From the NCBI GenBank assembly GCA_965203775.1, contig OZ241913.1:3242653-3306652 (forward strand): 64,000 bases of DNA, given 5' to 3'. The DNA comes from Dehalococcoidia bacterium. Its GTDB lineage: Bacteria > Chloroflexota > Dehalococcoidia > Bin125. Below are positions 79-32,848 of this stretch, piece after piece (the stretch's first letter is position 1; each line of letters begins with the position of its first letter). A program made the translations under genes and the position numbers. The notes below the pieces were generated by a model, which saw nothing but the letters and a program-made list of their open reading frames with translations, made no database searches and was not told the origin of the DNA.

Positions 79-1794
79 CTAGGGCGACGGGGCTGTGAGG
101 CGGTTGTTGGCGCTGTTGCCCCAGCAGGCGATAGTGCCGTCGGTCTTGATGCCGCAGGTGTGTTCATTGCCGGCGCTGACGGCGGTGTAGGTGCCTGCGG
201 TGACGGTGGTTTGGTCCTGGTTGTTGCGGCCCCAACAGGTGATTGCGCCGGCGCTGCTGAGCGCGCAGGTGTGATTTCTGCCGGCGCTGATCGCGGTGAA
301 CGTGCCCGAGGAGGGCGCGTCGCTCCTTTGGTTGTAAGCATTCCGGCCCCAGCAGGAGATCGCGCCGGCGCTGCTCAGCGCGCAGGTATGGCCCCCGCCG
401 GCGCTCAACGCAGTGAATGCGCCTGTCGGCGCGGCGGTCCGATCCTCAATGCTTTCGCCCCAGCAGTGGATCGCCCCGGTGCTGCGCAGCCCGCAGGTGT
501 AGGTGTCGCCGGCGCTGACTGCGCTGAACGTGCCCGTCTGCGCGTCGATCCGGCCTAACGTGCTGGCTCCCCAGCAGGAGACCGCTCCGCCGCTCGCCAG
601 TGCGCAGGTGTGCGACGCATCGGAGCCGCTGCCCAGCGCGGTGAAGCTGCCCGAGGGCGCGTTGAGGCGGTTGTTACTGCTCGCTCCCCAGCACTCAATT
701 GCGCCGCTGCTGCGCAGCGCGCAGGTGTGGTGCGCGCCGACCGCCAGCGCGGTAAATGAGCCCGTCGGAGCGTTGAGGCGGTTGTCGGCGTTGTTGCCCC
801 AGCAGACGATCGTGCCCGTGCTGCGCAGGGCGCAGGTGTGCGACCTGCCCGCGCTGAGCGCGGTGAACGTGGTTGGGGTTGGAGTCGGTGTAGGGGTTGG
901 CGTAGGCGTAGCAGGGTCCGGCGTTGCGCCGCCCTCGTCGTTGCTTGAGGTGTCCGCGACGGTCCGAGTAGCCGTTGTCGGGGTGAGCTCCGCAATCAGC
1001 TCAGGCAAGCGATCATCCTGCCCGCCCCAGCAGCGAGCGCGCTCGTCGTTGAGCGCGCAGGAGTGGCGCATTCCCGCGCTCACGGCGATGTAGCGCCCCG
1101 ACGGGGCGTTGGACTGGTCGTAGCGATCGTCGCCCCAGCACTCGATTGCGCCTGATTCGCGCAGCCCGCACGAGTGCCAGGCTCCGGCGCTGATTTGGGT
1201 GAAGACTCCCGTTGGGGCGTTGAGTTGGCTGAAGTTGTTGAGTCCCCAGCATTCGGCTGCGCCGTTTTCGCGCAGAGCGCAGCTATGCGTCGTGCCCGCG
1301 CTCACTTGCGTGAAGACGCCATCGGGGGCGTCGGTGCGTCCGAGGTTGGCGCGGCCCCAGCAGGCGATTTCGCCTGTTGTGCGCAGTCCGCAGGCGTGCA
1401 GATAGCCCGCGCTAACCGCGCTGAACTCCCCCTCCGGCGGATTCGCTTGTCCGTAGTCGAGCACGCTGCGGCCATAGCTGCTCGTTCCCCAGCACTCGAT
1501 CGCGCTGTCGCTCTTGCGGACGGCGCAGGCGAACTGCCAGCCCACGGCGATGTCGCTGAACGCGCCTTGCGGCGCGTTCTGATCTGCGCCCCAGCAGGCG
1601 ATTTCGCCGCCGCCCTGTCGGATGGCGCAGTTGTGCCAGTCGCCGGCGCTCACGGCCGTGTAGCGGCCTTCGGGGATGTCGCGCAGGTCTGCCTGGTTGC
1701 CGCCCCAGCAGCGGATCACGCCGTCGGCGCGGAGGGTGCATTGGTGCTCGCCGCCGGCGTCGAGCGCGAGGTAGCGGCTGGTTGAGGTGGGCAT
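79..1794 (-). CDS. RCC1-repeat (beta-propeller) protein, two repeat blocks joined by a PT-rich linker, paralog 1
   Basis: About 20 repeats of the type HTCALrstGaIxCWGxN and a (PT)n linker. The frame stays open upstream of the ATG at 1794 and encodes a signal-peptide h-region (KFLPIALAIAALLLAFLTLAQAA) up to the poly-C tract at 1866-1881. Confidence 0.75.
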   Translation of the reverse strand: MPTSTSRYLALDAGGEHQCTLRADGVIRCWGGNQADLRDIPEGRYTAVSAGDWHNCAIRQGGGEIACWGADQNAPQGAFSDIAVGWQFACAVRKSDSAIECWGTSSYGRSVLDYGQANPPEGEFSAVSAGYLHACGLRTTGEIACWGRANLGRTDAPDGVFTQVSAGTTHSCALRENGAAECWGLNNFSQLNAPTGVFTQISAGAWHSCGLRESGAIECWGDDRYDQSNAPSGRYIAVSAGMRHSCALNDERARCWGGQDDRLPELIAELTPTTATRTVADTSSNDEGGATPDPATPTPTPTPTPTPTTFTALSAGRSHTCALRSTGTIVCWGNNADNRLNAPTGSFTALAVGAHHTCALRSSGAIECWGASSNNRLNAPSGSFTALGSGSDASHTCALASGGAVSCWGASTLGRIDAQTGTFSAVSAGDTYTCGLRSTGAIHCWGESIEDRTAAPTGAFTALSAGGGHTCALSSAGAISCWGRNAYNQRSDAPSSGTFTAISAGRNHTCALSSAGAITCWGRNNQDQTTVTAGTYTAVSAGNEHTCGIKTDGTIACWGNSANNRLTAPSP

Positions 1795-2072: not shown

Positions 2073-3113
2073 ATGAGGATGGCGAACCCCAACAGCGTGG
2101 CAGAGGCGGTGGCTCTGCTGGGCGTCGCGCCGGGAGCGGACGCGGCGGCGGTGCGCAAGCGCTACCGCGAGCTGGCCAAGCAGCTTCACCCCGACCGCAA
2201 CCCCGATGATCCGCTGGCGGACCAGCGGATGGCGGAGCTGAATCGCGCCCGCGACCTGCTGGTCGACGGGGTGCCGCGCGACTTGCAGCGCGGGGCGCCG
2301 GCGAGTCCCCCGCCGCAGCCGAAGCCGGAACCGCAGCGCCGGCCGCAGTCGCGCGCCGAGCGTGCGGAGACGCATCAGGCGTTTCGCGACGAGATGGAGC
2401 GGGCGCGGCGCACGGATACGGAGCGCGAGCGTCGGCGTCGGGCGGCGCGGCGTCGAGCGCGGCAAGAGGCGGAGGAGCGCGCGCGGCGCGCCGCTGAGGC
2501 CGCCCGCGAGGCGGCGGACCAGCCGCCGTCGACCGAGCCGGCTACGGAACGCCGCCGCCGCCGACCGAGCGGGCAAGCGCGAACGGGCGCGAGCAAGACT
2601 GCCGCCCCGAAGCGACGCGGCGGCACCCGCGCGCGCAACGCGCCGCCCAAACGCGACGCATTCACCTCTCCGATCGGTCGAATCTGCGATCTGCTCTCCG
2701 CGCAGGGCTGGGAGGATGCGGTGGCCGCGGTTCGACAGCGCTACCGCGAGGCGGGGGCGTCTGCGCCGCCCAGCGCGGAGTTCGTGCTGTCGGTGGAGCT
2801 TGACGGCGAGGCGCGGGTCGCGGCGGTGGTGGTGGCCGCTCCCGGCGTGCTCGACGGCGCGGCGCTGGACTACGCGATCGGGCGGGCGGCGGAGGTCGGC
2901 GCGCCGTTCGCGTTCGCCGCGAACGAGCGGATGTTCCGTCGGGCCGGCGTCCGCAGCCGAGCACGCACGAATCCGAAAGCGCTCTCGAAATTCCCGAGCC
3001 CCGCTGAGCTGAGCGAGGCGCTGGCGCAGCAGATCGCGGAGGCTGAGGCGGGGGACGGATCGTCGAAGCGCGAGCGCGGGCCGGCGAATTTTGGGCGTCT
3101 GTTCCGTCGCTGA
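2073..3113 (+). CDS. J-domain (DnaJ-like) protein with an Arg/Glu-rich charged segment and an uncharacterised C-terminal domain
   Basis: N-terminus LLGVAPGADAAAVRKRYRELAKQLHPDRNPDD has an intact HPD motif, followed by ERERRRRAARRRARQEAEERARRAAEAA. Confidence 0.75.
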   Translation: MRMANPNSVAEAVALLGVAPGADAAAVRKRYRELAKQLHPDRNPDDPLADQRMAELNRARDLLVDGVPRDLQRGAPASPPPQPKPEPQRRPQSRAERAETHQAFRDEMERARRTDTERERRRRAARRRARQEAEERARRAAEAAREAADQPPSTEPATERRRRRPSGQARTGASKTAAPKRRGGTRARNAPPKRDAFTSPIGRICDLLSAQGWEDAVAAVRQRYREAGASAPPSAEFVLSVELDGEARVAAVVVAAPGVLDGAALDYAIGRAAEVGAPFAFAANERMFRRAGVRSRARTNPKALSKFPSPAELSEALAQQIAEAEAGDGSSKRERGPANFGRLFRR

Positions 3114-3145: not shown

Positions 3146-4300
3146 ATGATCGAACTTAATGAGGCGCAGGAACTGATTCGGCGCACGGTGCGCGGCTTCG
3201 CGGAGGCGGAGATCGAGCCGATCGCGGACGAGATCGACCGCGAGGACAAGTGGCCGGGGCATTTGTGGCCGATGCTCGGCGAGTTGGGGCTGTTGGGCGT
3301 GACGATCGACGAGCGCTACGGCGGCTCCGACGCGGGGCTGCTGGCGGGCGTGATTGCGACGGAGGAGATCGCGCGGGCGTCGGCGTCGGTCGCGCTGTCC
3401 TACGGCGCGCACGCGAATCTGTGCGCGAACAACATCGCGACCAACGGCAGCGAGGCGCAGAAGCGGCGCTATCTGCCGGGATTGTGCAGCGGGGCGGAGG
3501 TGGGCGCGCTGGCGCTGACCGAGCCGGAGGCGGGCTCCGACGCGGTGGGCATCCGCAGCACGGCGGCGCGCGAGGGCGATGTCTACCGGCTCAACGGGAG
3601 CAAGATGTTCATCACCAACGGGTCGGTCGCGGACACGCTGGTGCTCTACGCCAAGACCGATCCTGAGGCGGGCTCGCGCGGGATCACGGCGTTCATCGTG
3701 GAGTCCTCGTTCGAGGGCTTCTCGGTGGGGCAGAAGTTGGACAAGGTGGGTCACCGCGGCTCGCCTACCGCCGAGCTGCTGCTGGAGGATTGCCTGGTGC
3801 CGGCCGACAATGTGCTGGGGCGGGAGGGCGGCGGCGCGGCGGTGATGATGCAGGGGCTGGCGGTCGAGCGGGCGTTTCTGGCGGGCGAGCCGCTGGGGAT
3901 TGCGCAAGCGGCGCTGGATGCGGCGGTCGGCTACGCCCGCGAGCGGCGGCAGTTCGGACAGCGGATCGGCGATTTCCAGCTGATTCAGGCGATGCTGGCG
4001 GACATGTACACGGAGTTGGAGGCGGCGCGCTGGCTGGTCTACCGCACGGCGTCGCTGGTCGAGCAGCGGGCGGCGCGGGGAGAGCGGGCGAACAAAGAGG
4101 CGGCAGCGGCGATTCTGTATTCGGCGGAGATGTCGAGTCGGGTGGCGGACAAGGCGGTGCAGATTCACGGTGGCTACGGCTACATGAGCGAGAGTCGGGT
4201 GGCGCGCTACGCGCGCGACGCGAAGCTGCTGGAGATCGGGGCGGGGACGAGCGAGATTCGGCGCTTGCTGATTGGTCGGGAGTTGGTGGGGCCGGAGTAG
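3146..4300 (+). CDS. Acyl-CoA dehydrogenase (isovaleryl-CoA dehydrogenase-like)
   Basis: Full-length ACAD pattern (SYGAHANLC, LTEPEAGSD, FITNG, GDFQLIQ, catalytic-base region GGYGY) recognised by eye. Confidence 0.9.
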   Translation: MIELNEAQELIRRTVRGFAEAEIEPIADEIDREDKWPGHLWPMLGELGLLGVTIDERYGGSDAGLLAGVIATEEIARASASVALSYGAHANLCANNIATNGSEAQKRRYLPGLCSGAEVGALALTEPEAGSDAVGIRSTAAREGDVYRLNGSKMFITNGSVADTLVLYAKTDPEAGSRGITAFIVESSFEGFSVGQKLDKVGHRGSPTAELLLEDCLVPADNVLGREGGGAAVMMQGLAVERAFLAGEPLGIAQAALDAAVGYARERRQFGQRIGDFQLIQAMLADMYTELEAARWLVYRTASLVEQRAARGERANKEAAAAILYSAEMSSRVADKAVQIHGGYGYMSESRVARYARDAKLLEIGAGTSEIRRLLIGRELVGPE

Positions 4301-4306
4301 GGGCGG

Positions 4307-4335
4307 TTGACAAGGCGGGGCGGGGCGGTCAATCT
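4307..4335 (+). promoter_or_regulatory. Sigma-70-like promoter of sRNA-like unit A
   Basis: TTGACA (4307-4312), 17-nt spacer, caatct (4330-4335). Confidence 0.5.
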
Positions 4336-4340
4336 TGCTT

Positions 4341-4475
4341 GCGAGGGCCGGCAACTGCGTAGCGGAAGACGGTCCCGCCGACGGCGTCACCAGGCCCCCG
4401 GCAGGCGCTGTCAATGGCTCAAGGGGGTCGGAGGGCTGGTCGCTGCCATTGCGGGGGCCGGCCCTCACTCGTTTC
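4341..4475 (+). ncRNA. Candidate structured small RNA, unit A of four tandem paralogous units (family unknown)
   Basis: Conserved core ggtcccgccgacggcgtcaccaggcccccggcaggcgctgtcaatggct. 3' hairpin gagggctggt (4431-4440) / gccggccctc (4458-4467). No coding frame is shared between units. Ends are approximate. Confidence 0.5.
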
Positions 4476-4536
4476 TGCGCCGCTGGTTCGGCCTTGTCAT
4501 GGATTCAGTGCAGCTAGAGGCGATCTGTAGGCGCGC

Positions 4537-4565
4537 TTGACATTTCTCAGCGAAGCGGCCAACCT
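4537..4565 (+). promoter_or_regulatory. Sigma-70-like promoter of sRNA-like unit B
   Basis: TTGACA (4537-4542), 17-nt spacer, caacct (4560-4565). Confidence 0.5.
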
Positions 4566-4570
4566 TGTTC

Positions 4571-4705
4571 CTGAGGGCCAGCCACTGAGTATTCGGCCGC
4601 TGGTCCCGCCGACGGCGTCGCCAGGCCCCCGGCAGGCGCTGTCAATGGCTTCAGGGGGTCGGAGGGCCAGCCACCGCCACTGCGGTCGCTGGCCCCATTC
4701 GTCTG
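4571..4705 (+). ncRNA. Candidate structured small RNA, unit B
   Basis: Same core as unit A. 3' hairpin gggccagc (4664-4671) / gctggccc (4688-4695), with pairing kept by compensatory changes relative to A and D. Ends are approximate. Confidence 0.5.
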
Positions 4706-4745
4706 GCCCACTCCCCAAACGCGGCTGGAGCTTGGCGTCGGGGGC

Positions 4746-4774
4746 TTGACAATCCGCTTGGCGGTGTGCATCAT
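4746..4774 (+). promoter_or_regulatory. Sigma-70-like promoter of sRNA-like unit C
   Basis: TTGACA (4746-4751), 17-nt spacer, catcat (4769-4774). Confidence 0.5.
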
Positions 4775-4780
4775 TGCTCA

Positions 4781-4915
4781 TGAGGACTGTACCGACCCGT
4801 GGGGGACGGGCGGCCCCGCCGGAGACGTTGCCAGCCCCCGGTTGCGTCGCCATTGGCTGTTTGGGGGTGCGAAGGTCGGCCCCTGCCATCGCGGGCGCCG
4901 GCCTTCATCCTTGCT
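4781..4915 (+). ncRNA. Candidate structured small RNA, unit C (most diverged)
   Basis: Diverged core (ccccgccggagacgttgccagcccccggttgcgtcgccattggct). 3' hairpin gaaggtcggc (4871-4880) / gccggccttc (4897-4906), with a compensatory gg-to-ag / cc-to-ct change. Ends are approximate. Confidence 0.45.
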
Positions 4916-4973
4916 GATCTGCTGCCTCAATCGCGTCCTGGCTCCGCGCCGACAGAGACGATCTACAGGCGCG

Positions 4974-5003
4974 CTTGACATTTCGGGGCTGCGCAGTGCA
5001 TCA
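4974..5003 (+). promoter_or_regulatory. Sigma-70-like promoter of sRNA-like unit D
   Basis: TTGACA (4974-4979), 18-nt spacer, catcat (4998-5003). The upstream context gcgcgcttgacatttc is shared with unit B. Confidence 0.5.
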
Positions 5004-5007
5004 TTGC

Positions 5008-5140
5008 GGTGAGGGCCGGCAACTGCGTAGCGGAAGACGGTCCCGCCGACGGCGTCACCAGGCCCCCGGCAGGCGCTGTCAATGGCTCAAGGGGGTCGGA
5101 GGGCTGGTCGCTGCGTAGCGGGGGCCGGCCCTCACTCGTT
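5008..5140 (+). ncRNA. Candidate structured small RNA, unit D (near-identical to A)
   Basis: Core identical to A. 3' hairpin gagggctggt (5099-5108) / gccggccctc (5124-5133). The 3' end overlaps the stop of the convergent DUF3800 gene. Confidence 0.5.
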
Positions 5141-5857
5141 GGCCGGCATGACCTCGATCGCAGCCTCGCTGCTCCCGTGCAGCTTCTCGCGCACGATTTC
5201 CCAATCGGGCCGTTCCGGGTAACCGACGATGTGCCGGCCAATCGGCGTGACAACCAGGTCCGCCAGCTCCAGATCAACGAGTCGCTCCGATTTGTCATGG
5301 AATGACAACGAGGCAATGCGGCGACGGATCGAGCGCCCGGTGAAATCGCCTGCCCCAACCTCTCGCAGCGTTCGCCACTGCCTGAGAGTGCGGCGGTCCA
5401 ACGCCGGCTGCCGCTGTTCGGCGCGAATTCGCCCGCCGCGGTGCTGGTTGCCGACGATCTCACAGAACCGAATGACCAACCGTTCGAGCGCGTAGTGGTA
5501 CGGGTCGCCGACGGCCGGAGCCGACTCCGCATCAAGGCGATCTTTGCGCACCGCACACGCCACAACGCTGAATTCAAGGCCGCGCAGCACGGCGCTGAGT
5601 TCGCGAAAGAATGCGTTGCGAAAGTCGCGGTCCTGTAGAACAGAGAACACACCAGCGTTCCGGGTGATCTCCACGGTGTGCAAGACGAAGTCCGTTTGCC
5701 CGAACAGATCCCGCTTGAAGGCCCGAATTGCCTCGTCGGCTCGGATCCTCGCGTAGTCATCTTCGAAGATCACTCCGCCGAGGACGAAGACGGGGTAGCC
5801 CGGGTCAATCTGCTTGAGGTTGTGATCCCCCGACTCGTCCAGACTCATCGTCTTCAT
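5132..5857 (-). CDS. DUF3800-like protein
   Basis: Start chosen at MKTMSLDESGDHN (ATG 5855-5857), matching the DESG N-terminus typical of DUF3800. The upstream 84 codons of the track ORF lie inside the UGSC gene. The start overlaps the UGSC stop as ATGA. Confidence 0.65.
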   Translation of the reverse strand: MKTMSLDESGDHNLKQIDPGYPVFVLGGVIFEDDYARIRADEAIRAFKRDLFGQTDFVLHTVEITRNAGVFSVLQDRDFRNAFFRELSAVLRGLEFSVVACAVRKDRLDAESAPAVGDPYHYALERLVIRFCEIVGNQHRGGRIRAEQRQPALDRRTLRQWRTLREVGAGDFTGRSIRRRIASLSFHDKSERLVDLELADLVVTPIGRHIVGYPERPDWEIVREKLHGSSEAAIEVMPANE

Positions 5858-6390
5858 GGTTGCGCGCCGCTGAGCAGAATCTCCACGCCCTGGGCGTAGG
5901 CCTCGGCGGCGCGGGCAGCTAGCTCTGGCTGGCTGGCGCTGCCGATGGGGTGGTCTACCAGGGCGAAGGGGAAGTTGGGGAGGCCGAGGGTGCGGGCGAT
6001 CATTTTGCTCGTGGGCTCGAACGGATGCGTGCAGATCGCCAGCGCGGGCTTGCTCAGCTGCTCGAAAGTGATCGCGTCGTGCACACTGCACGTCGAGCAG
6101 GAGCCTCAATCGCCGACGGCGGTGATCAGGAAGTCCACGTTGTGGCTGAGATCGCGGAGCAGCTGCGGGTCGGCGACGCGGGAGGCGTTGGGCTTGGCCG
6201 TCTCGCGCGCGATGCGGCAGCCGTGCCGCTCGGCGAAGCGCTCGGCGGTCAGCCGCAGCAGGCGGTCGGCGTTGACCTTGCCGTTGGAGAGCAGGCCGAT
6301 TTTGAGGCCGTCGAGCGCGGACAGCCGCGCCGCCGCCGCGTAGCCGGTCTGCGGGGTTTGCCCGGTCGGGTCGAGGAGTTCGAGCGCCAT
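5854..6390 (-). CDS. UGSC-family selenoprotein (in-frame TGA = Sec at 6106-6108)
   Basis: Track ORFs 6106-6390 and 5854-6084 are in the same frame. Read-through gives ...ITAVGD-U-GSCSTCSVHDAITFEQ..., i.e. the UGSC motif. A hairpin follows the TGA. Confidence 0.7.
6075..6095 (-). promoter_or_regulatory. SECIS-like stem-loop downstream of the in-frame UGA
   Basis: RNA sense cgacgugca-gug-ugcacgacg: 6 perfect bp plus 2 bp beyond an A-A mismatch, with a G/U-containing loop. It starts 10 nt after the UGA. Confidence 0.55.
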
Positions 6391-7545: not shown

Positions 7546-9129
7546 TCAGGGCGAGCGCGTCGCGGGCGCCTGGTCTTCAACGTTGCGGCCCCAGCAGGCG
7601 ATCGTGCCATCGGTCTTGATGCCGCAGGTATGCGCATAGCCTGCGCTGACTGCGCTGTAGGTTCCCGCCGCGACCGCCGTCTGGCTGCTGGCATTGGAGC
7701 CCCAGCAAACGACCGCTCCCGCGCCGGTCACCCCGCAGGTGTGCGCATTCCCCGCGCTGACCGCGCTGTAGGTTCCCGCCGTGACGTCCGTCTGGCTGTT
7801 GGTGTTCAGACCCCAACAGACGATCGTCCCCGTGCTGCGCAGCCCGCAGTTGTGGCTGCCGCCCGCGCTGACGGCGGTGAACGTGCCTGTCTGCGCAGCG
7901 GTCCGATCGTTGCCGCTGTTTCCCCAGCAGTGAACCGCTCCCGTGCTGCGCAGTCCGCAGCTGTGACTGCCGCCCGCGCTGACGGCGGTGAATGTGCCCG
8001 TCAGCGTGGAGGTATCGGTCCGACCGTTGCCGCTGGCTCCCCAGCAGGAAACTCCACCACTGCTCGCCACCGCGCAGGTATGCCCCGCCTCGGAGCTGCT
8101 GCCGAGCGCGGTGAAGCTGCCTGAGGGCGCGGTCGTGCGGCTGTGGCCGTTGAATCCCCAGCAGACGATTGCGCCGCTGCTGCGCAGCGCGCAGGTGTGC
8201 GAGTTGCCGGCTGCCAGCGCGGTGAAGTCGGAACCCGTCGGCGGGGTGGCGCGGTTGTTGGCGTTGTTGCCCCAGCAGTCGAGCGTGCCCGTGCTGCGGA
8301 TGGCGCAGGTGTGGAAGCCGCCTGCGCTGACGGCGGTGTACGTGGTCGTCGGAGTTGGCGTCGGCGTCGGTGTGGGAGTTGGCGTGGGCGGGTCCGGCGT
8401 CGTCTCGCTCTCGTCGCCGCTTGATGTATCCGCGACGGTTCGGGTAACAGTGGTCGGCGTGAGCTCCGCAATCAGCTCAGGCAGGCGATCATCCTGCCCG
8501 CCCCAGCAGCGCGTGCCCGTGCGGCTTAGCGCGCAGGAATGGCGCATTCCTGCGCTGATGGCGAGATAGCGCCCCGACGGGGCGTTGGATTGGTCGTAGC
8601 GGTCGTCGCCCCAGCACTCGATTGCGCCTGATTCGCGCAAGCCGCAGCTGTGCCATGCTCCGGCGCTGATTTGGGTGAAGGCTCCTGATGGGGTGTCCAA
8701 CTGGCCGAAGTTGTTCAGCCCCCAGCACTCGGCTTCGCCGTTTTCGTGGAGGGCGCAGGAGTGGGTCGTGCCGGCGCTGATTTGGGTGAAAGTGCCTGAT
8801 GGCGCGTCGGTGCGTCCGAGGTTGGCGCGGCCCCAACAGGTGATTTCTCCCGTCGTTTGCAGTCCGCAGGCGTGGAGGTAGCCAGCGCTCACGGCACGGA
8901 ACTCGCCCTCCGGTGGATCCGCCTGGCCGTAGTCGAGCACGCTGCGGCCATAGCTGCTGGTTCCCCAGCACTCAAGCTCGCTGTCGCTTTCGCGGACGGC
9001 GCAGGCGAACTGCCAGCCTGCGGCGATGTCGCTGAACGCGCCTTGCGGCGCGTTCTGATCTGCGCCCCAGCAGGCGATTTCGTCGTTCTCCTGGCGGATC
9101 GCGCAGTTGTGCCATGCGCCGGCGCTCAC
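7546..9129 (-). CDS. RCC1-repeat protein, paralog 2 (track start is internal; the frame is open up to the poly-G tract at about 9342)
   Basis: Same architecture as 79-1794. Upstream in-frame translation RKPLSIALAIAALLLAALTLAQAATPTSTSRHLALDAGGEHQCTLRADGLIRCWGG matches the paralog 1 N-terminus but contains no start codon. Confidence 0.75.
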   Translation of the reverse strand: MSAGAWHNCAIRQENDEIACWGADQNAPQGAFSDIAAGWQFACAVRESDSELECWGTSSYGRSVLDYGQADPPEGEFRAVSAGYLHACGLQTTGEITCWGRANLGRTDAPSGTFTQISAGTTHSCALHENGEAECWGLNNFGQLDTPSGAFTQISAGAWHSCGLRESGAIECWGDDRYDQSNAPSGRYLAISAGMRHSCALSRTGTRCWGGQDDRLPELIAELTPTTVTRTVADTSSGDESETTPDPPTPTPTPTPTPTPTTTYTAVSAGGFHTCAIRSTGTLDCWGNNANNRATPPTGSDFTALAAGNSHTCALRSSGAIVCWGFNGHSRTTAPSGSFTALGSSSEAGHTCAVASSGGVSCWGASGNGRTDTSTLTGTFTAVSAGGSHSCGLRSTGAVHCWGNSGNDRTAAQTGTFTAVSAGGSHNCGLRSTGTIVCWGLNTNSQTDVTAGTYSAVSAGNAHTCGVTGAGAVVCWGSNASSQTAVAAGTYSAVSAGYAHTCGIKTDGTIACWGRNVEDQAPATRSP

Positions 9130-29693: not shown

Positions 29694-29768
<75 letters not shown>

Positions 29769-29861
29769 ACCGTGGACTGAGGGAGCAGGCTGCGAAAGCG
29801 TGTTGAGCGTGCGGCGTGTGCGGCGCGGATGCGCGCCGCTGCGCTGCGCAGTGGGTAGGGC

Positions 29862-32848
<2,987 letters not shown>

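What the first reader, a model, noticed from the sequence alone, without database searches (positions are those of the whole stretch)
4307..5140. Four tandem structured RNA-like units of about 130 nt, each with its own promoter, of unknown family
The 830-bp gap between the ACAD gene and the convergent DUF3800 gene is not empty. It holds four paralogous units. Each opens with a perfect TTGACA, a 17-18 nt spacer and a CAnnnT -10 box (caatct, caacct, catcat, catcat). Units A, B and D share a core (ggtcccgccgacggcgtc.ccaggcccccggcaggcgctgtcaatggct); unit C is diverged. All four end in a 3' hairpin of about 10 bp whose pairing is kept by compensatory substitutions: A and D gagggctggt/gccggccctc, B gggccagc/gctggccc, C gaaggtcggc/gccggccttc. 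An inner helix (gacggcg...cgctgtc in A, gacg...cgtc in C) also survives the divergence. Units A and D carry a second 5' copy of gagggccggc that can pair with the same 3' strand, so two mutually exclusive folds are possible. The only peptide shared between units (SDQPSDPLEPLTAPAGG...) lies on the opposite strand, embedded in unrelated long GC-driven ORFs without its own start. Multi-copy sRNA genes with separate promoters are typical of regulatory sRNA families, but I do not recognise this one.
Basis: seen in the sequence. Interest (0 to 1): 0.8.

Follow-up and report, generated by a model that had tools for sequence, protein, structure and literature searches.

The report
Small RNA genes beside DUF3800 nuclease
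The gap holds four real, separately promoted small structured RNA genes of a family absent from Rfam, and they belong to the neighbouring DUF3800 (RNase H-like) gene, built around a hairpin that also sits next to phage capsid genes.

Summary
Window 4307-5143 (+) holds four paralogous units of about 134 nt. Each has a perfect TTGACA, a 17-18 nt spacer, a CAnnnT -10 box and 6-7 nt to a conserved GAGG start. Related Dehalococcoidia genomes carry 1-4 such units at the same place. Across 19 units a three-stem-loop fold is 98% paired, and 13 of 40 pairs show compensatory changes. No Rfam 15 family matches.

The units always lie convergent to a DUF3800 (PF12686, RNase H-like) gene and abut or overlap its stop codon. 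SL1 and SL3 are copies of a 33-nt hairpin with the apical sequence A-CUGC-GUA-GCGG-G. In every DUF3800 homologue of this subfamily that I fetched from unrelated contexts, a minimal version (promoter plus this hairpin) lies antisense at the gene's 3' end. The same hairpin also occurs in about 20 uncultured viral contigs, several times directly after the major capsid gene.

This is best filed as a new structural class among the "DUF3800-associated RNAs" of Weinberg 2017, here in expanded, multi-copy form. My mechanism is inferred, not shown: an RNA partner, antitoxin-like, of the nuclease.

The parts
4307..4335 (+). Promoter of unit A: -35 TTGACA 4307-4312, 17-nt spacer, -10 CAATCT 4330-4335
   Evidence: The same architecture is conserved in all 19 units of 9 genomes.
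4343..4476 (+). sRNA unit A (type 1): SL1 4343-4376 (inner CUGC-GUA-GCGG 4355-4365); SL2 4377-4418 (C-rich loop 4390-4401); G-run 4423-4427; SL3 4432-4465 (apical CUGC-CAUU-GCGG); tail 4466-4476
   Evidence: (147.5 bits). The 5' and 3' ends are predicted, not mapped.
4537..4565 (+). Promoter of unit B: -35 TTGACA 4537-4542, 17-nt spacer, -10 CAACCT 4560-4565
4573..4707 (+). sRNA unit B (type 1 variant): SL1 4573-4607, SL2 4608-4649, SL3 4663-4696. It carries the G->A / C->U compensatory changes in SL1 and SL3. Neither of its hairpins has the canonical GUA apex.
   Evidence: (121.7 bits)
4746..4774 (+). Promoter of unit C: -35 TTGACA 4746-4751, 17-nt spacer, -10 CATCAT 4769-4774
4782..4916 (+). 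sRNA unit C (diverged type 2): SL1 4782-4817, SL2 4818-4857, SL3 4872-4905, tail CAUCCUUGCUG
   Evidence: (93.1 bits). Type 2 copies are present in L008, L012, L034, L059, L126 and L128.
4975..5004 (+). Promoter of unit D: -35 TTGACA 4975-4980, 18-nt spacer, -10 CATCAT 4999-5004
5011..5143 (+). sRNA unit D (type 1): SL1 5011-5044 (CUGC-GUA-GCGG 5023-5033); SL2 5045-5086; SL3 5100-5132 (canonical apex CUGC-GUA-GCGG 5111-5121). SL3 ends at 5132, the first base of the DUF3800 stop codon (5132-5134); the next two bases pair in the single-sequence fold.
   Evidence: (137.4 bits)
5132..5857 (-). DUF3800 (PF12686) gene, 241 aa, RNase H-like fold, N-terminal LDESGD motif. It is convergent with the RNA array and is the proposed partner of the RNAs.
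   Evidence: P0001; invariant D7, E8, H60, R66, E147, D200; pLDDT 94; best fold matches are RNase HII and RNase HI
3146..4300 (+). Acyl-CoA dehydrogenase gene. Its stop codon is 6 nt before the -35 box of unit A. It is a syntenic neighbour only and not linked to the RNA outside this clade.
   Evidence: Hairpin elements occur next to DUF3800 without ACAD in L130, L132, L145, L146, L148 and L152.

Best explanation
The four units are independently transcribed small RNA genes of about 134 nt on the + strand. They form a duplicated, expanded version of a small RNA that is encoded convergently at the 3' end of DUF3800 genes.

Each RNA has three stem-loops:
- SL1 starts right at the transcription start.
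- SL2 is specific to this clade and has an almost invariant C-rich apical loop, CCAGRCCCCCGG. A single-stranded GGGGG run follows it.
- SL3 is a long terminal hairpin whose base overlaps the DUF3800 stop codon.

SL1 and SL3 are two copies of one 33-nt hairpin module. Its outer stem covaries and its apex, A-CUGC-GUA-GCGG-G, contains a conserved U.G wobble.

Shown here: the genes, the promoters, the fold, the strand, and the linkage to DUF3800 across unrelated contexts.

Inferred: the hairpin is the ligand of the DUF3800 RNase H-like protein. An abundant RNA (strong promoters, 1-4 gene copies) keeps that fast-evolving nuclease in check, like an RNA antitoxin of a type III-like or abortive-infection module. 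The overlap of the 3' ends would add antisense control of the DUF3800 mRNA.
For: RNA genes:
- All 19 units have TTGACA, a 16-18 nt spacer, CAnnnT and 6-7 nt to GAGG.
- The fold is 98% paired and 13 of 40 pairs have changes on both sides. No shuffle of 500 reached this, and slid controls are 35-56% paired (13 sequences).
- Many conserved G.U pairs fix the strand. The reverse strand scores at most 26 bits, against 93-147 bits for the forward strand.
- Non-triplet indels between copies rule out coding.

Linkage to DUF3800:
- The same synteny and the same overlap with the stop codon hold in genomes whose DUF3800 proteins are only 48-70% identical.
- In other contexts, including restriction-modification and other defence-type gene neighbourhoods and mobile regions, the DUF3800 homologues L130/L131, L132, L133, L145, L146/L147, L148, L152/L153 and L154 each carry a hairpin of this design antisense at the 3' end. 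All except L133 have a TTGACN-like -35 box and a NAnnnT -10 box directly upstream.
- The hairpin's position relative to the stop codon shifts by about 60 nt, so protein coding does not explain its conservation.
- These loci were found through the protein, not the RNA, so the conserved CUGC-GUA-GCGG apex there is an independent observation.
- Across 17 hairpins, 96.8% of cells are paired, 4 of 13 pairs are compensatory, and the apical stem including its U.G pair is invariant.
- A purely cis-antisense role would not need a conserved sequence. That points to recognition by a trans factor.

Context:
- DUF3800 here is the fastest-evolving gene of the locus: 65-71% nt identity, against 87-89% for its neighbours ACAD and the 351-aa gene.
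- It has an RNase H-like fold with DE..E..D and many invariant basic residues.
- The literature links DUF3800 to ncRNAs, retrons and CRISPR accessory modules (PMC5737381, PMC7736814, PMC10910872).
- More distant DUF3800 genes carry different convergent 3' RNAs, including Rfam DUF3800-V in L154. A lineage-specific RNA partner is therefore the rule.
Against: - There are no expression data. The transcription starts, 3' ends and RNA abundance are all predicted.
- Nothing here shows that the DUF3800 protein binds or cuts the RNA, or that it is toxic.
- A strain-specific DUF3800 gene scored as essential in a Legionella Tn-seq study (PMC7811196). That fits a protective protein better than a toxin.
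- The protein evolves fast while the hairpin apex is invariant.
- Units B and C of the window have no canonical GUA apex, so not every copy can work through it.
- The same hairpin occurs in viral contigs without DUF3800. Its primary role could therefore be independent of DUF3800.
- PADLOC has no model that matches this protein.
- The sequences are few and related, and alignment A3 was fitted to the model, so the pair counts lean towards the structure.
Confidence: 0.55

Rival explanations
1. Sibling trans-acting regulatory sRNAs. The units regulate distant mRNAs by base pairing through the invariant C-rich loop of SL2 (anti-G-rich or anti-Shine-Dalgarno) or the GGGGG linker. Their position next to DUF3800 is incidental or only historical.
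For: - The C-rich apical loop CCAGRCCCCCGG and the single-stranded GGGGG run are almost invariant in 19 units.
- Multi-copy sRNA genes with separate promoters are typical of such regulators (general knowledge: Qrr, PrrF, CcsR).
- SL2 is absent from the minimal DUF3800 elements, so it may have its own function.
Against: - The promoter-proximal and terminal hairpins are the module that travels with DUF3800 genes in unrelated contexts.
- No convincing complementary site was found in the window: only two other 1-mismatch matches to the loop complement (at 31768 and 38629), and about two matches are expected by chance.
- Duplex prediction in this GC-rich DNA was uninformative.
- The family is confined to one locus per genome in a narrow clade.
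Confidence: 0.15
2. The roles are reversed. The hairpin RNA is the harmful or signalling molecule, either a small RNA toxin or a mimic of a phage RNA. DUF3800 is then the nuclease that processes or neutralises it, or senses the same hairpin on phage capsid mRNA, as in a type V/VIII-like toxin-antitoxin pair or an RNA-sensing defence.
For: - The DUF3800 gene scored essential in an accessory region of Legionella, alongside antitoxin genes (PMC7811196).
- The same hairpin lies directly after or before major head protein genes in several unrelated viral contigs.
- The RNase H-like fold suggests the protein cuts nucleic acid.
Against: - Up to four strongly promoted copies of a toxic RNA against one weakly signalled protein gene is the wrong stoichiometry for a toxin.
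- There is no evidence of toxicity.
- The Legionella protein is a different DUF3800 subfamily, and I did not inspect its RNA.
Confidence: 0.12
3. The hairpin is only an efficient terminator or 3'-end stabiliser shared by phages and hosts. The units are duplicated promoter-terminator cassettes that insulate the convergent ACAD and DUF3800 transcripts, and the RNA product has no function.
For: - SL3 sits at the convergence point of two genes.
- The minimal elements have U-runs after the hairpin.
- In phages the hairpin follows the most highly expressed gene, where stabilising hairpins are common (T7 T-phi, from general knowledge).
Against: - A terminator does not need an invariant 13-nt apex with a conserved U.G pair while its outer stem is free to covary.
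- Several viral copies and the window units lack a U-run.
- SL1 carries the same apex at the 5' end of the RNA, where it cannot terminate anything useful.
- SL2 is conserved and covaries.
- A consensus promoter firing straight into a terminator is conserved next to DUF3800 genes in many contexts.
Confidence: 0.1
4. The units are decayed fragments of a protein gene or of a mobile element (MITE or REP-like).
For: Long GC-driven ORFs cover the region on both strands. One related genome has a duplication that carries a 38-codon ACAD 3' fragment.
Against: - Copies differ by 1-2 nt indels, and no reading frame is kept in unit C.
- Substitutions follow base pairing, not codons.
- There is one locus per genome, no other copy in the 64 kb, and no terminal repeats.
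Confidence: 0.02

Closest known systems
DUF3800-associated RNA motifs, DUF3800-I to -XI (Weinberg et al. 2017, PMC5737381; Rfam RF02964, RF02968, RF02969 and others)
   Same: - Structured RNAs found next to PF12686 genes, on either strand, several ending in terminators, function unknown.
- That set already holds many unrelated structures attached to one protein family.
- In viral locus L154, Rfam DUF3800-V lies convergent to the DUF3800 gene, on the same side and strand as the units here.
   Different: - None of the Rfam models matches the window units or the minimal hairpins, even at E<=10.
- The DUF3800-V consensus (UAA-rich, one long irregular hairpin) shows no resemblance.
- Tandem copies with individual consensus promoters, and the two-hairpin modular build, are not described for those motifs in the paper's main text.
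- I could not read the paper's supplement, so identity with a motif that never reached Rfam cannot be fully excluded.
BjrC68 sRNA of Bradyrhizobiaceae (Rfam RF02353; transcription start validated in PMC4842269)
   Same: A second, different class of convergent 3' element is found at proteobacterial and viral DUF3800 genes that are 28-35% identical to the window protein. One copy gives a sub-threshold match to BjrC68 (L170, 26.3 bits against a gathering score of 39). If that match is real, it would be experimental precedent that RNAs in this position are expressed from their own promoters.
   Different: The sequence and fold differ from the window units. The match is below Rfam's cut-off. I did not check whether BjrC68 in Bradyrhizobium lies next to a DUF3800 gene.
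Type III toxin-antitoxin antitoxin RNAs (ToxI/ToxN and relatives) and phage pseudo-ToxI mimics (my own knowledge: Fineran 2009; Blower 2012)
   Same: - Repeated structured RNA units encoded beside a nuclease gene.
- RNA in excess over protein.
- Phages carry orphan copies of the RNA.
   Different: - ToxI repeats are about 36 nt, lie upstream of the toxin on the same strand, share one promoter and are cut out by the toxin.
- Here the units are about 134 nt (or a single 33-nt hairpin), convergent, and each has its own promoter.
- ToxN is a Kid/CcdB-like endoribonuclease, not an RNase H-like protein.
- Toxicity and processing are untested.
Type I toxin-antitoxin pairs with 3'-overlapping antisense RNA (RatA/txpA, SR4/bsrG; my own knowledge)
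   Same: A convergent small RNA with a strong promoter whose 3' end overlaps the 3' end of the partner mRNA.
   Different: - The partner is a 241-aa soluble RNase H-like protein, not a short hydrophobic peptide.
- The overlap is only a few to about 60 nt.
- The conserved sequence of the hairpin is not explained by cis-antisense pairing.
Stabilising or terminating hairpins after phage major capsid genes (for example T7 T-phi after gene 10; my own knowledge)
   Same: In viral contigs L177 and relatives, L182 and L183, the CUGC-GUA-GCGG hairpin lies immediately after the major head protein gene on the same strand.
   Different: - The apex is sequence-invariant across phages of 31-67% GC while the stems differ completely.
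- Several copies lack a U-run.
- The same hairpin is expressed from its own promoter next to DUF3800 genes.

Membership tests
DUF3800-associated RNA motifs (Weinberg 2017) | Encoded next to a gene for a PF12686 (DUF3800) protein, repeatedly and in different genomic contexts | tested here: met
   - Pfam hit of the neighbouring gene.
- Full units at 9 syntenic genomes.
- The hairpin module at DUF3800 genes in non-syntenic contexts L130, L132, L145, L146, L148, L152 and L154.
DUF3800-associated RNA motifs (Weinberg 2017) | Conserved secondary structure supported by covariation | tested here: met
   - 19 units: 98% paired, 13 of 40 pairs compensatory, 0 of 500 shuffles reach this.
- 17 hairpins: 96.8% paired, 4 of 13 pairs compensatory.
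DUF3800-associated RNA motifs (Weinberg 2017) | Matches one of the curated covariance models (Rfam DUF3800-I to -X) | tested here: not met
   - No hit at gathering score, or at E<=10, in window 4250-5200.
- No hit in related loci.
- Positive control: the same search finds DUF3800-V in L154.
Type III toxin-antitoxin RNA antitoxin (ToxI-like) | Tandem short repeats upstream of the toxin gene, on the same strand, under one promoter | tested here: not met
   The units are convergent to the protein gene, each has its own promoter, and the unit length is 134 nt.
Type III toxin-antitoxin RNA antitoxin (ToxI-like) | The protein partner is a toxic endoribonuclease that binds and processes the RNA | not testable with these tools
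   Only an RNase H-like fold and conserved acidic and basic residues could be shown.
Type I toxin-antitoxin antisense RNA (3'-overlap class) | Convergent sRNA overlapping the 3' end of the partner mRNA | tested here: met
   - The terminal hairpin of unit D reaches the stop codon at 5132-5134.
- The hairpin lies partly or wholly inside the CDS in L132 and L145.
Type I toxin-antitoxin antisense RNA (3'-overlap class) | The partner encodes a small hydrophobic toxic peptide | tested here: not met
   The partner is a 241-aa globular RNase H-like protein.
Sibling trans-acting sRNAs (Qrr, PrrF or CcsR type) | Several paralogous copies that share a conserved unpaired seed and have identifiable mRNA targets | tested here: inconclusive
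   A conserved C-rich loop and a G-run are present. No convincing target was found in the window, and the rest of the genome is not available.
Dispersed repeats (REP, MITE) | Many copies scattered through the genome, with terminal inverted repeats or target duplications | tested here: not met
   - There are only the four copies in 64 kb.
- There is one locus per genome in the four GTDB genomes that matched.
- No copy was found in the metagenome scan.

The most novel reading that the evidence does not exclude
The 33-nt hairpin with the invariant apex A-CUGC-GUA-GCGG-G is a shared RNA ligand in a phage-host conflict. DUF3800, a fast-evolving RNase H-like nuclease, is held inactive (or is loaded) by its own abundantly transcribed hairpin RNA. 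Phages place the same hairpin at the end of their capsid mRNA or on small transcripts of their own. There it would act either as a decoy antitoxin that silences the nuclease, or as the viral RNA signature that the nuclease senses. The four-copy, two-hairpin RNA of this window would then be a host escalation in RNA dosage.
Probability: 0.15. Interest if true: 0.85.

Novelty: new member of a known kind. Interest (0 to 1): 0.6.

Why it matters
DUF3800 proteins turn up in retrons, in Cas12a2/a3 and Cas13 accessory operons and in defence islands. Eleven unrelated RNA motifs have been tied to them since 2017, with no functional hypothesis.

This locus adds three things:
- A clean anatomy: a consensus promoter, a hairpin that starts at the transcription start, and a convergent position at the stop codon of the gene.
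- A minimal 33-nt element with a sequence-invariant apex that can be mutated and tested directly.
- Evidence that the same element sits next to phage capsid genes.

Together these make the question 'what do DUF3800 RNAs do?' experimentally approachable through binding, cleavage, toxicity and phage-challenge assays. The finding also adds an unrecognised sRNA family for Chloroflexota, a phylum with almost no characterised sRNAs.

Tried and rejected
- Rfam 15, at gathering score and at E<=10, on the window and on related loci found nothing for the units or the hairpin. Only junk-level hits appeared (mir-1257, AS1890 at 16 bits).
- The metagenome scan with a core pattern returned 48 loci, all chance matches in G+C-rich or low-complexity DNA.
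- In the genome scan, 67 of 71 loci were chance matches, several of them at one conserved site in homologous protein-coding genes. Only four Dehalococcoidia MAGs were real.
My first column indexing was off by one; the +1 slide row of that output is the correct register.
- A pseudoknot between the CCCCC loop and the GGGGG run can be neither supported nor excluded, because both are invariant.
- The target search for the C-rich loop, and RNAduplex against the DUF3800 operon, were uninformative in this GC-rich DNA.
- The hairpin is not an rRNA mimic: there is no similar site in the 23S gene of the window.
- Literature search for the hairpin sequence gave no paper.
- BLAST of the hairpin against GenBank phages and PLSDB plasmids gave no full-length match.
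- The RuvC-like protein whose gene overlaps the hairpin in viral contig L139 shows no relation to DUF3800 by profile comparison.
- PADLOC and NCBIfam have no model that matches the DUF3800 protein, and there is no sequence relative in the PDB.
- tRNA or tmRNA was rejected. Protein-coding was rejected.
Full report
**1. What is in the sequence**

Window 4307-5143 (+ strand) lies between an acyl-CoA dehydrogenase gene (3146-4300, +) and a convergent DUF3800 gene. Homologues show the DUF3800 gene is 5132-5857 (-), 241 aa, not the longer mechanical ORF. The gap holds four paralogous units.

- Each unit opens with a perfect TTGACA, a 17-18 nt spacer and a CAnnnT hexamer. A conserved GAGG follows 6-7 nt later.
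- Units A, B and D share a 94-nt core at 87-100% identity. Its central 30-mer occurs exactly three times in 64 kb, where none is expected.
- Unit C is a diverged fourth copy.
That peptide is not kept in unit C, and 1-2 nt indels between copies break its frame.
- There is no tRNA or tmRNA here and no Rfam 15 family, even at E<=10.

**2. Relatives**

An exact-pattern scan of one genome per GTDB species found real homologues only in four Dehalococcoidia MAGs: L008, L012, L034 and L059. L008 is 93-99% identical to the window over the flanking genes, so the window comes from that lineage. A scan of JGI metagenome contigs found none.

Homologues of the DUF3800 protein led to more genomes with the same synteny: a methyltransferase gene, a 350-aa gene, a UGSC gene and DUF3800 on one strand, facing the RNA units, ACAD and DnaJ on the other.

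- Copy number is one unit in L120, L124/L125 and L127.
- It is two in L012, L034, L059, L121-L123, L126 and L128/L129, and three in L008.
- It is four in the window.
- Two subtypes occur in varying order: type 1 (like A, B and D) and type 2 (like C).
- Several genomes carry a duplication that includes a 38-codon ACAD 3' fragment. This shows how the array grows.
- A covariance model of the unit finds only the four copies in the whole window.

**3. It is an RNA, made from the + strand**

RNAalifold on 13 units gives three stem-loops:

- SL1: GAGGGCCG/CGGUCCC enclosing CUGC-GUA-GCGG.
- SL2: GCC-GACGGCGUC ... GGCGCUGUC-AAU-GGC, with the apical loop CCAGRCCCCCGG.
- An unpaired GGGGG run.
- SL3: GAGGGCUGGUCGCUGC-GUA-GCGGGGGCCGGCCCUC.

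On 19 distinct units, 98.0% of cells are paired and 13 of 40 pairs have changes on both sides. None of 500 column shuffles reaches these values, and sliding the partners by 1-3 columns drops pairing to 35-56% (13 units).

Caveats apply. The sequences are related paralogues and orthologues, and this alignment was fitted to the model.

Further points:
- Conserved G.U pairs would be A.C mismatches on the other strand. The reverse strand scores at most 26 bits, against 93-147 bits for the forward strand.
- All 19 units keep the promoter architecture.
- A deletion in L008 unit 1 removes exactly the inner hairpin of SL1 and keeps the outer helix.
- The most diverged copy (L127) keeps SL1 through two double changes: G1-C37 to C-G, and G3-C36 to A-U.

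I regard it as a by-product of SL1 and SL3 being copies of one module.

**4. The RNA belongs to DUF3800, not to ACAD**

The 3' end of the last unit always abuts or overlaps the DUF3800 stop codon.

I then fetched DUF3800 homologues at 38-50% identity that lie in quite different surroundings:
- a mobile region with HNH, PD-(D/E)XK and AlpA genes (L130/L131);
- a cluster with type I restriction-modification, ThsB-like TIR, MazG and SLATT genes (L132);
- a site next to an MmeI-type enzyme (L145);
- sites near AbiEii or ParE genes (L146, L148);
- viral contigs (L152/L153, L154).

Every one has a minimal element antisense at the 3' end of the gene:
- It consists of a -35/-10 promoter (TTGACN-like, then NAnnnT) followed within about 7-10 nt by a single hairpin, often with a U-run.
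- The common form is GGNNNGGNN-A-CUGC-GUA-GCGG-G-NNCCNNNCC.
- The apex varies in two loci: GAA in L133 and GGAU in L154.
- L133 shares the window's synteny but has only this minimal form, and I found no clear -35 box there.

The hairpin lies downstream of the stop codon in L130, L146 and L148, across it in L132, and inside the coding region in L145. Protein coding therefore does not explain its conservation.

These loci were reached through the protein, so the shared apex is an independent observation. In an alignment of 17 such hairpins the outer stem covaries (4 of 13 pairs compensatory, 96.8% paired). The apical CUGC/GCGG stem, including a U.G wobble, never varies.

SL1 and SL3 of the window units are two copies of this module. 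SL2 is specific to the clade.

**5. Wider pattern**

More distant DUF3800 genes (28-35% identity) sit on proteobacterial plasmids (L149-L151) and in about 20 viral contigs (L155-L176). They carry a different conserved convergent element at the same place: AAAUGG-hairpin-CGGCGYU, then a terminator, then UUUCGCUUU.

- One copy gives a sub-threshold match to the Bradyrhizobium sRNA BjrC68 (26.3 bits, gathering score 39). BjrC68 is an sRNA whose transcription start was validated, and its function is unknown (PMC4842269).
- In L154, Rfam's DUF3800-V lies on the same side and strand, just upstream of the hairpin element (42.1 bits, gathering score 37.4).

This fits Weinberg et al. (PMC5737381). They reported eleven unrelated RNA structures associated with DUF3800 genes, in either orientation, several with terminators, and no functional hypothesis.

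**6. The protein**

- The AlphaFold model is confident (pLDDT 94).
- Its best structural matches are archaeal RNase HII and then RNase HI (TM 0.4-0.5). This agrees with the literature (PMC7736814, PMC10910872).
- D7 and E8 (LDESGD), E147 and D200 are invariant, as are H60 and several basic residues.
- Within the conserved synteny, DUF3800 is by far the fastest-evolving gene: 65-71% nucleotide identity where ACAD and the 351-aa gene keep 87-89% and the RNA units 80-96%.
- That pattern is typical of genes in conflict with parasites.
- PADLOC, NCBIfam and PDB sequence searches give nothing.

**7. The hairpin in phages**

Three pattern scans of IMG/VR found the hairpin in about 20 viral contigs of 31-67% G+C.

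- The apex was required by the patterns, so its invariance there is by construction.
- The complementary 5' arm was not required. Yet nearly every hit forms an 8-10 bp outer stem.
- The outer stems have completely different sequences, for example GGGGAGAGGU/GCCUCUCCCC, GGGCGGUU/GGCCGCCC and GGGGCGGUA/UGCCGCCC.
- Only L184 and L187 (the same contigs as L152 and L153) also encode DUF3800.
- In L177 and four relatives, in L182 and in L183, the hairpin lies immediately after the major head protein gene on the same strand (phrog_1328, phrog_617).
- In L135/L136 it lies between the scaffold-like gene and the capsid gene, behind a TTGACA promoter.
- In L139 it is antisense in the 3' end of a RuvC-like resolvase gene.
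- No cultured phage or plasmid record has it, and no paper contains the sequence.

**8. Interpretation**

Shown:
- Four separately promoted structured sRNA genes.
- A family not in Rfam.
- One locus per genome.
- Obligatory convergent linkage to DUF3800 through a conserved hairpin module.

Inferred:
- An invariant apex is not needed for cis-antisense pairing, and the outer stem is free to vary. The apex is therefore most likely read by a trans factor.
- The only constant neighbour is the DUF3800 nuclease.
- Strong promoters and gene amplification argue for RNA in excess over protein, as for RNA antitoxins.
- I therefore favour an RNA partner that restrains or loads the nuclease, with the 3' overlap as a second layer of control (confidence about 0.55 for the partner relationship, lower for the antitoxin mechanism).

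Points against:
- There are no expression or binding data.
- A DUF3800 gene scored essential in Legionella (PMC7811196).
- The protein evolves fast while the apex is fixed.
- Units B and C lack the canonical apex.
- Orphan hairpins exist in phages.

Rivals are: independent trans-acting sRNAs that use the C-rich loop; reversed roles, with the RNA as toxin or as the sensed phage signature; and a mere terminator or stabiliser.

**9. Classification**

It works like, and is best filed with, the DUF3800-associated RNAs. It is a new structural class within that kind, in an expanded and multi-copy form. It is not a member of any curated Rfam family. That was tested and not met, with DUF3800-V in L154 as a positive control.

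The shared hairpin between DUF3800 loci and phage capsid regions was not found in the literature I could search. It is the most interesting lead.

Noticed in passing
window 5854-6390 (-): The two small 'UGSC' ORFs (94 aa and 76 aa) are one 178-codon UGSC-family selenoprotein gene with an in-frame TGA at 6106-6108 (motif ...AVGD-U-GSCSTCS...). A hairpin can form just downstream of the TGA and is a possible SECIS element. The stop codon of this gene overlaps the DUF3800 start, so the two genes are probably translationally coupled.
   Followed up: partly
L177 (apex at 5568 in the RNA orientation), L182, L183, L135 7839-7867, L136; viral contigs: The hairpin with the apex ACUGC-GUA-GCGGG lies directly after, or just before, the major head protein gene in several unrelated uncultured phages (31-67% GC). 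The outer stems covary fully. The element is not in Rfam and its function is unknown.
   Followed up: partly
L149 about 2215-2330 (-), L150, L151 (plasmids of Methylorubrum, Sinorhizobium pSymA, Paraburkholderia); L155-L176 (viral): A second, different conserved convergent small element sits at the 3' end of more distant DUF3800 genes. It has a 5' AAAUGG or AAGUGG, a covarying hairpin, CGGCGYY, a terminator and UUUCGCUUU. One copy (L170 2207-2274) gives a sub-threshold match to the Bradyrhizobium sRNA BjrC68.
   Followed up: partly
window 5132-5857 compared with L012, L034, L124, L126, L128: DUF3800 is the fastest-evolving gene in an otherwise conserved gene order: 65-71% nucleotide identity where ACAD and the 351-aa gene keep 87-89%. 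This suggests diversifying selection or allele replacement.
   Followed up: partly
L034 (reverse orientation 2186-2310), L121-L123: The RNA array contains a duplicated 38-codon 3' fragment of the ACAD gene between two units. It is a footprint of the tandem duplication that multiplies the units.
   Followed up: no
window 29695-32846 (-): A 23S rRNA gene is followed directly by a tRNA-Met gene. No 5S or 16S rRNA match was reported anywhere in the 64 kb, which suggests an unlinked rRNA gene arrangement.
   Followed up: no
window 79-1794 (-) and 7546-9129 (-): Two large RCC1-repeat (beta-propeller) protein genes flank the region. In related genomes an N6/N4 DNA methyltransferase gene lies upstream of the 350-aa gene (in the position of 7546-9129).
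   Followed up: no
L154 2419-2564 (-): A bona fide Rfam DUF3800-V RNA and a separate promoter-plus-hairpin element (CUGC-GGAU-GCGG) lie in tandem downstream of one viral DUF3800 gene (GC 36%). One DUF3800 gene can therefore have two different associated RNAs.
   Followed up: partly
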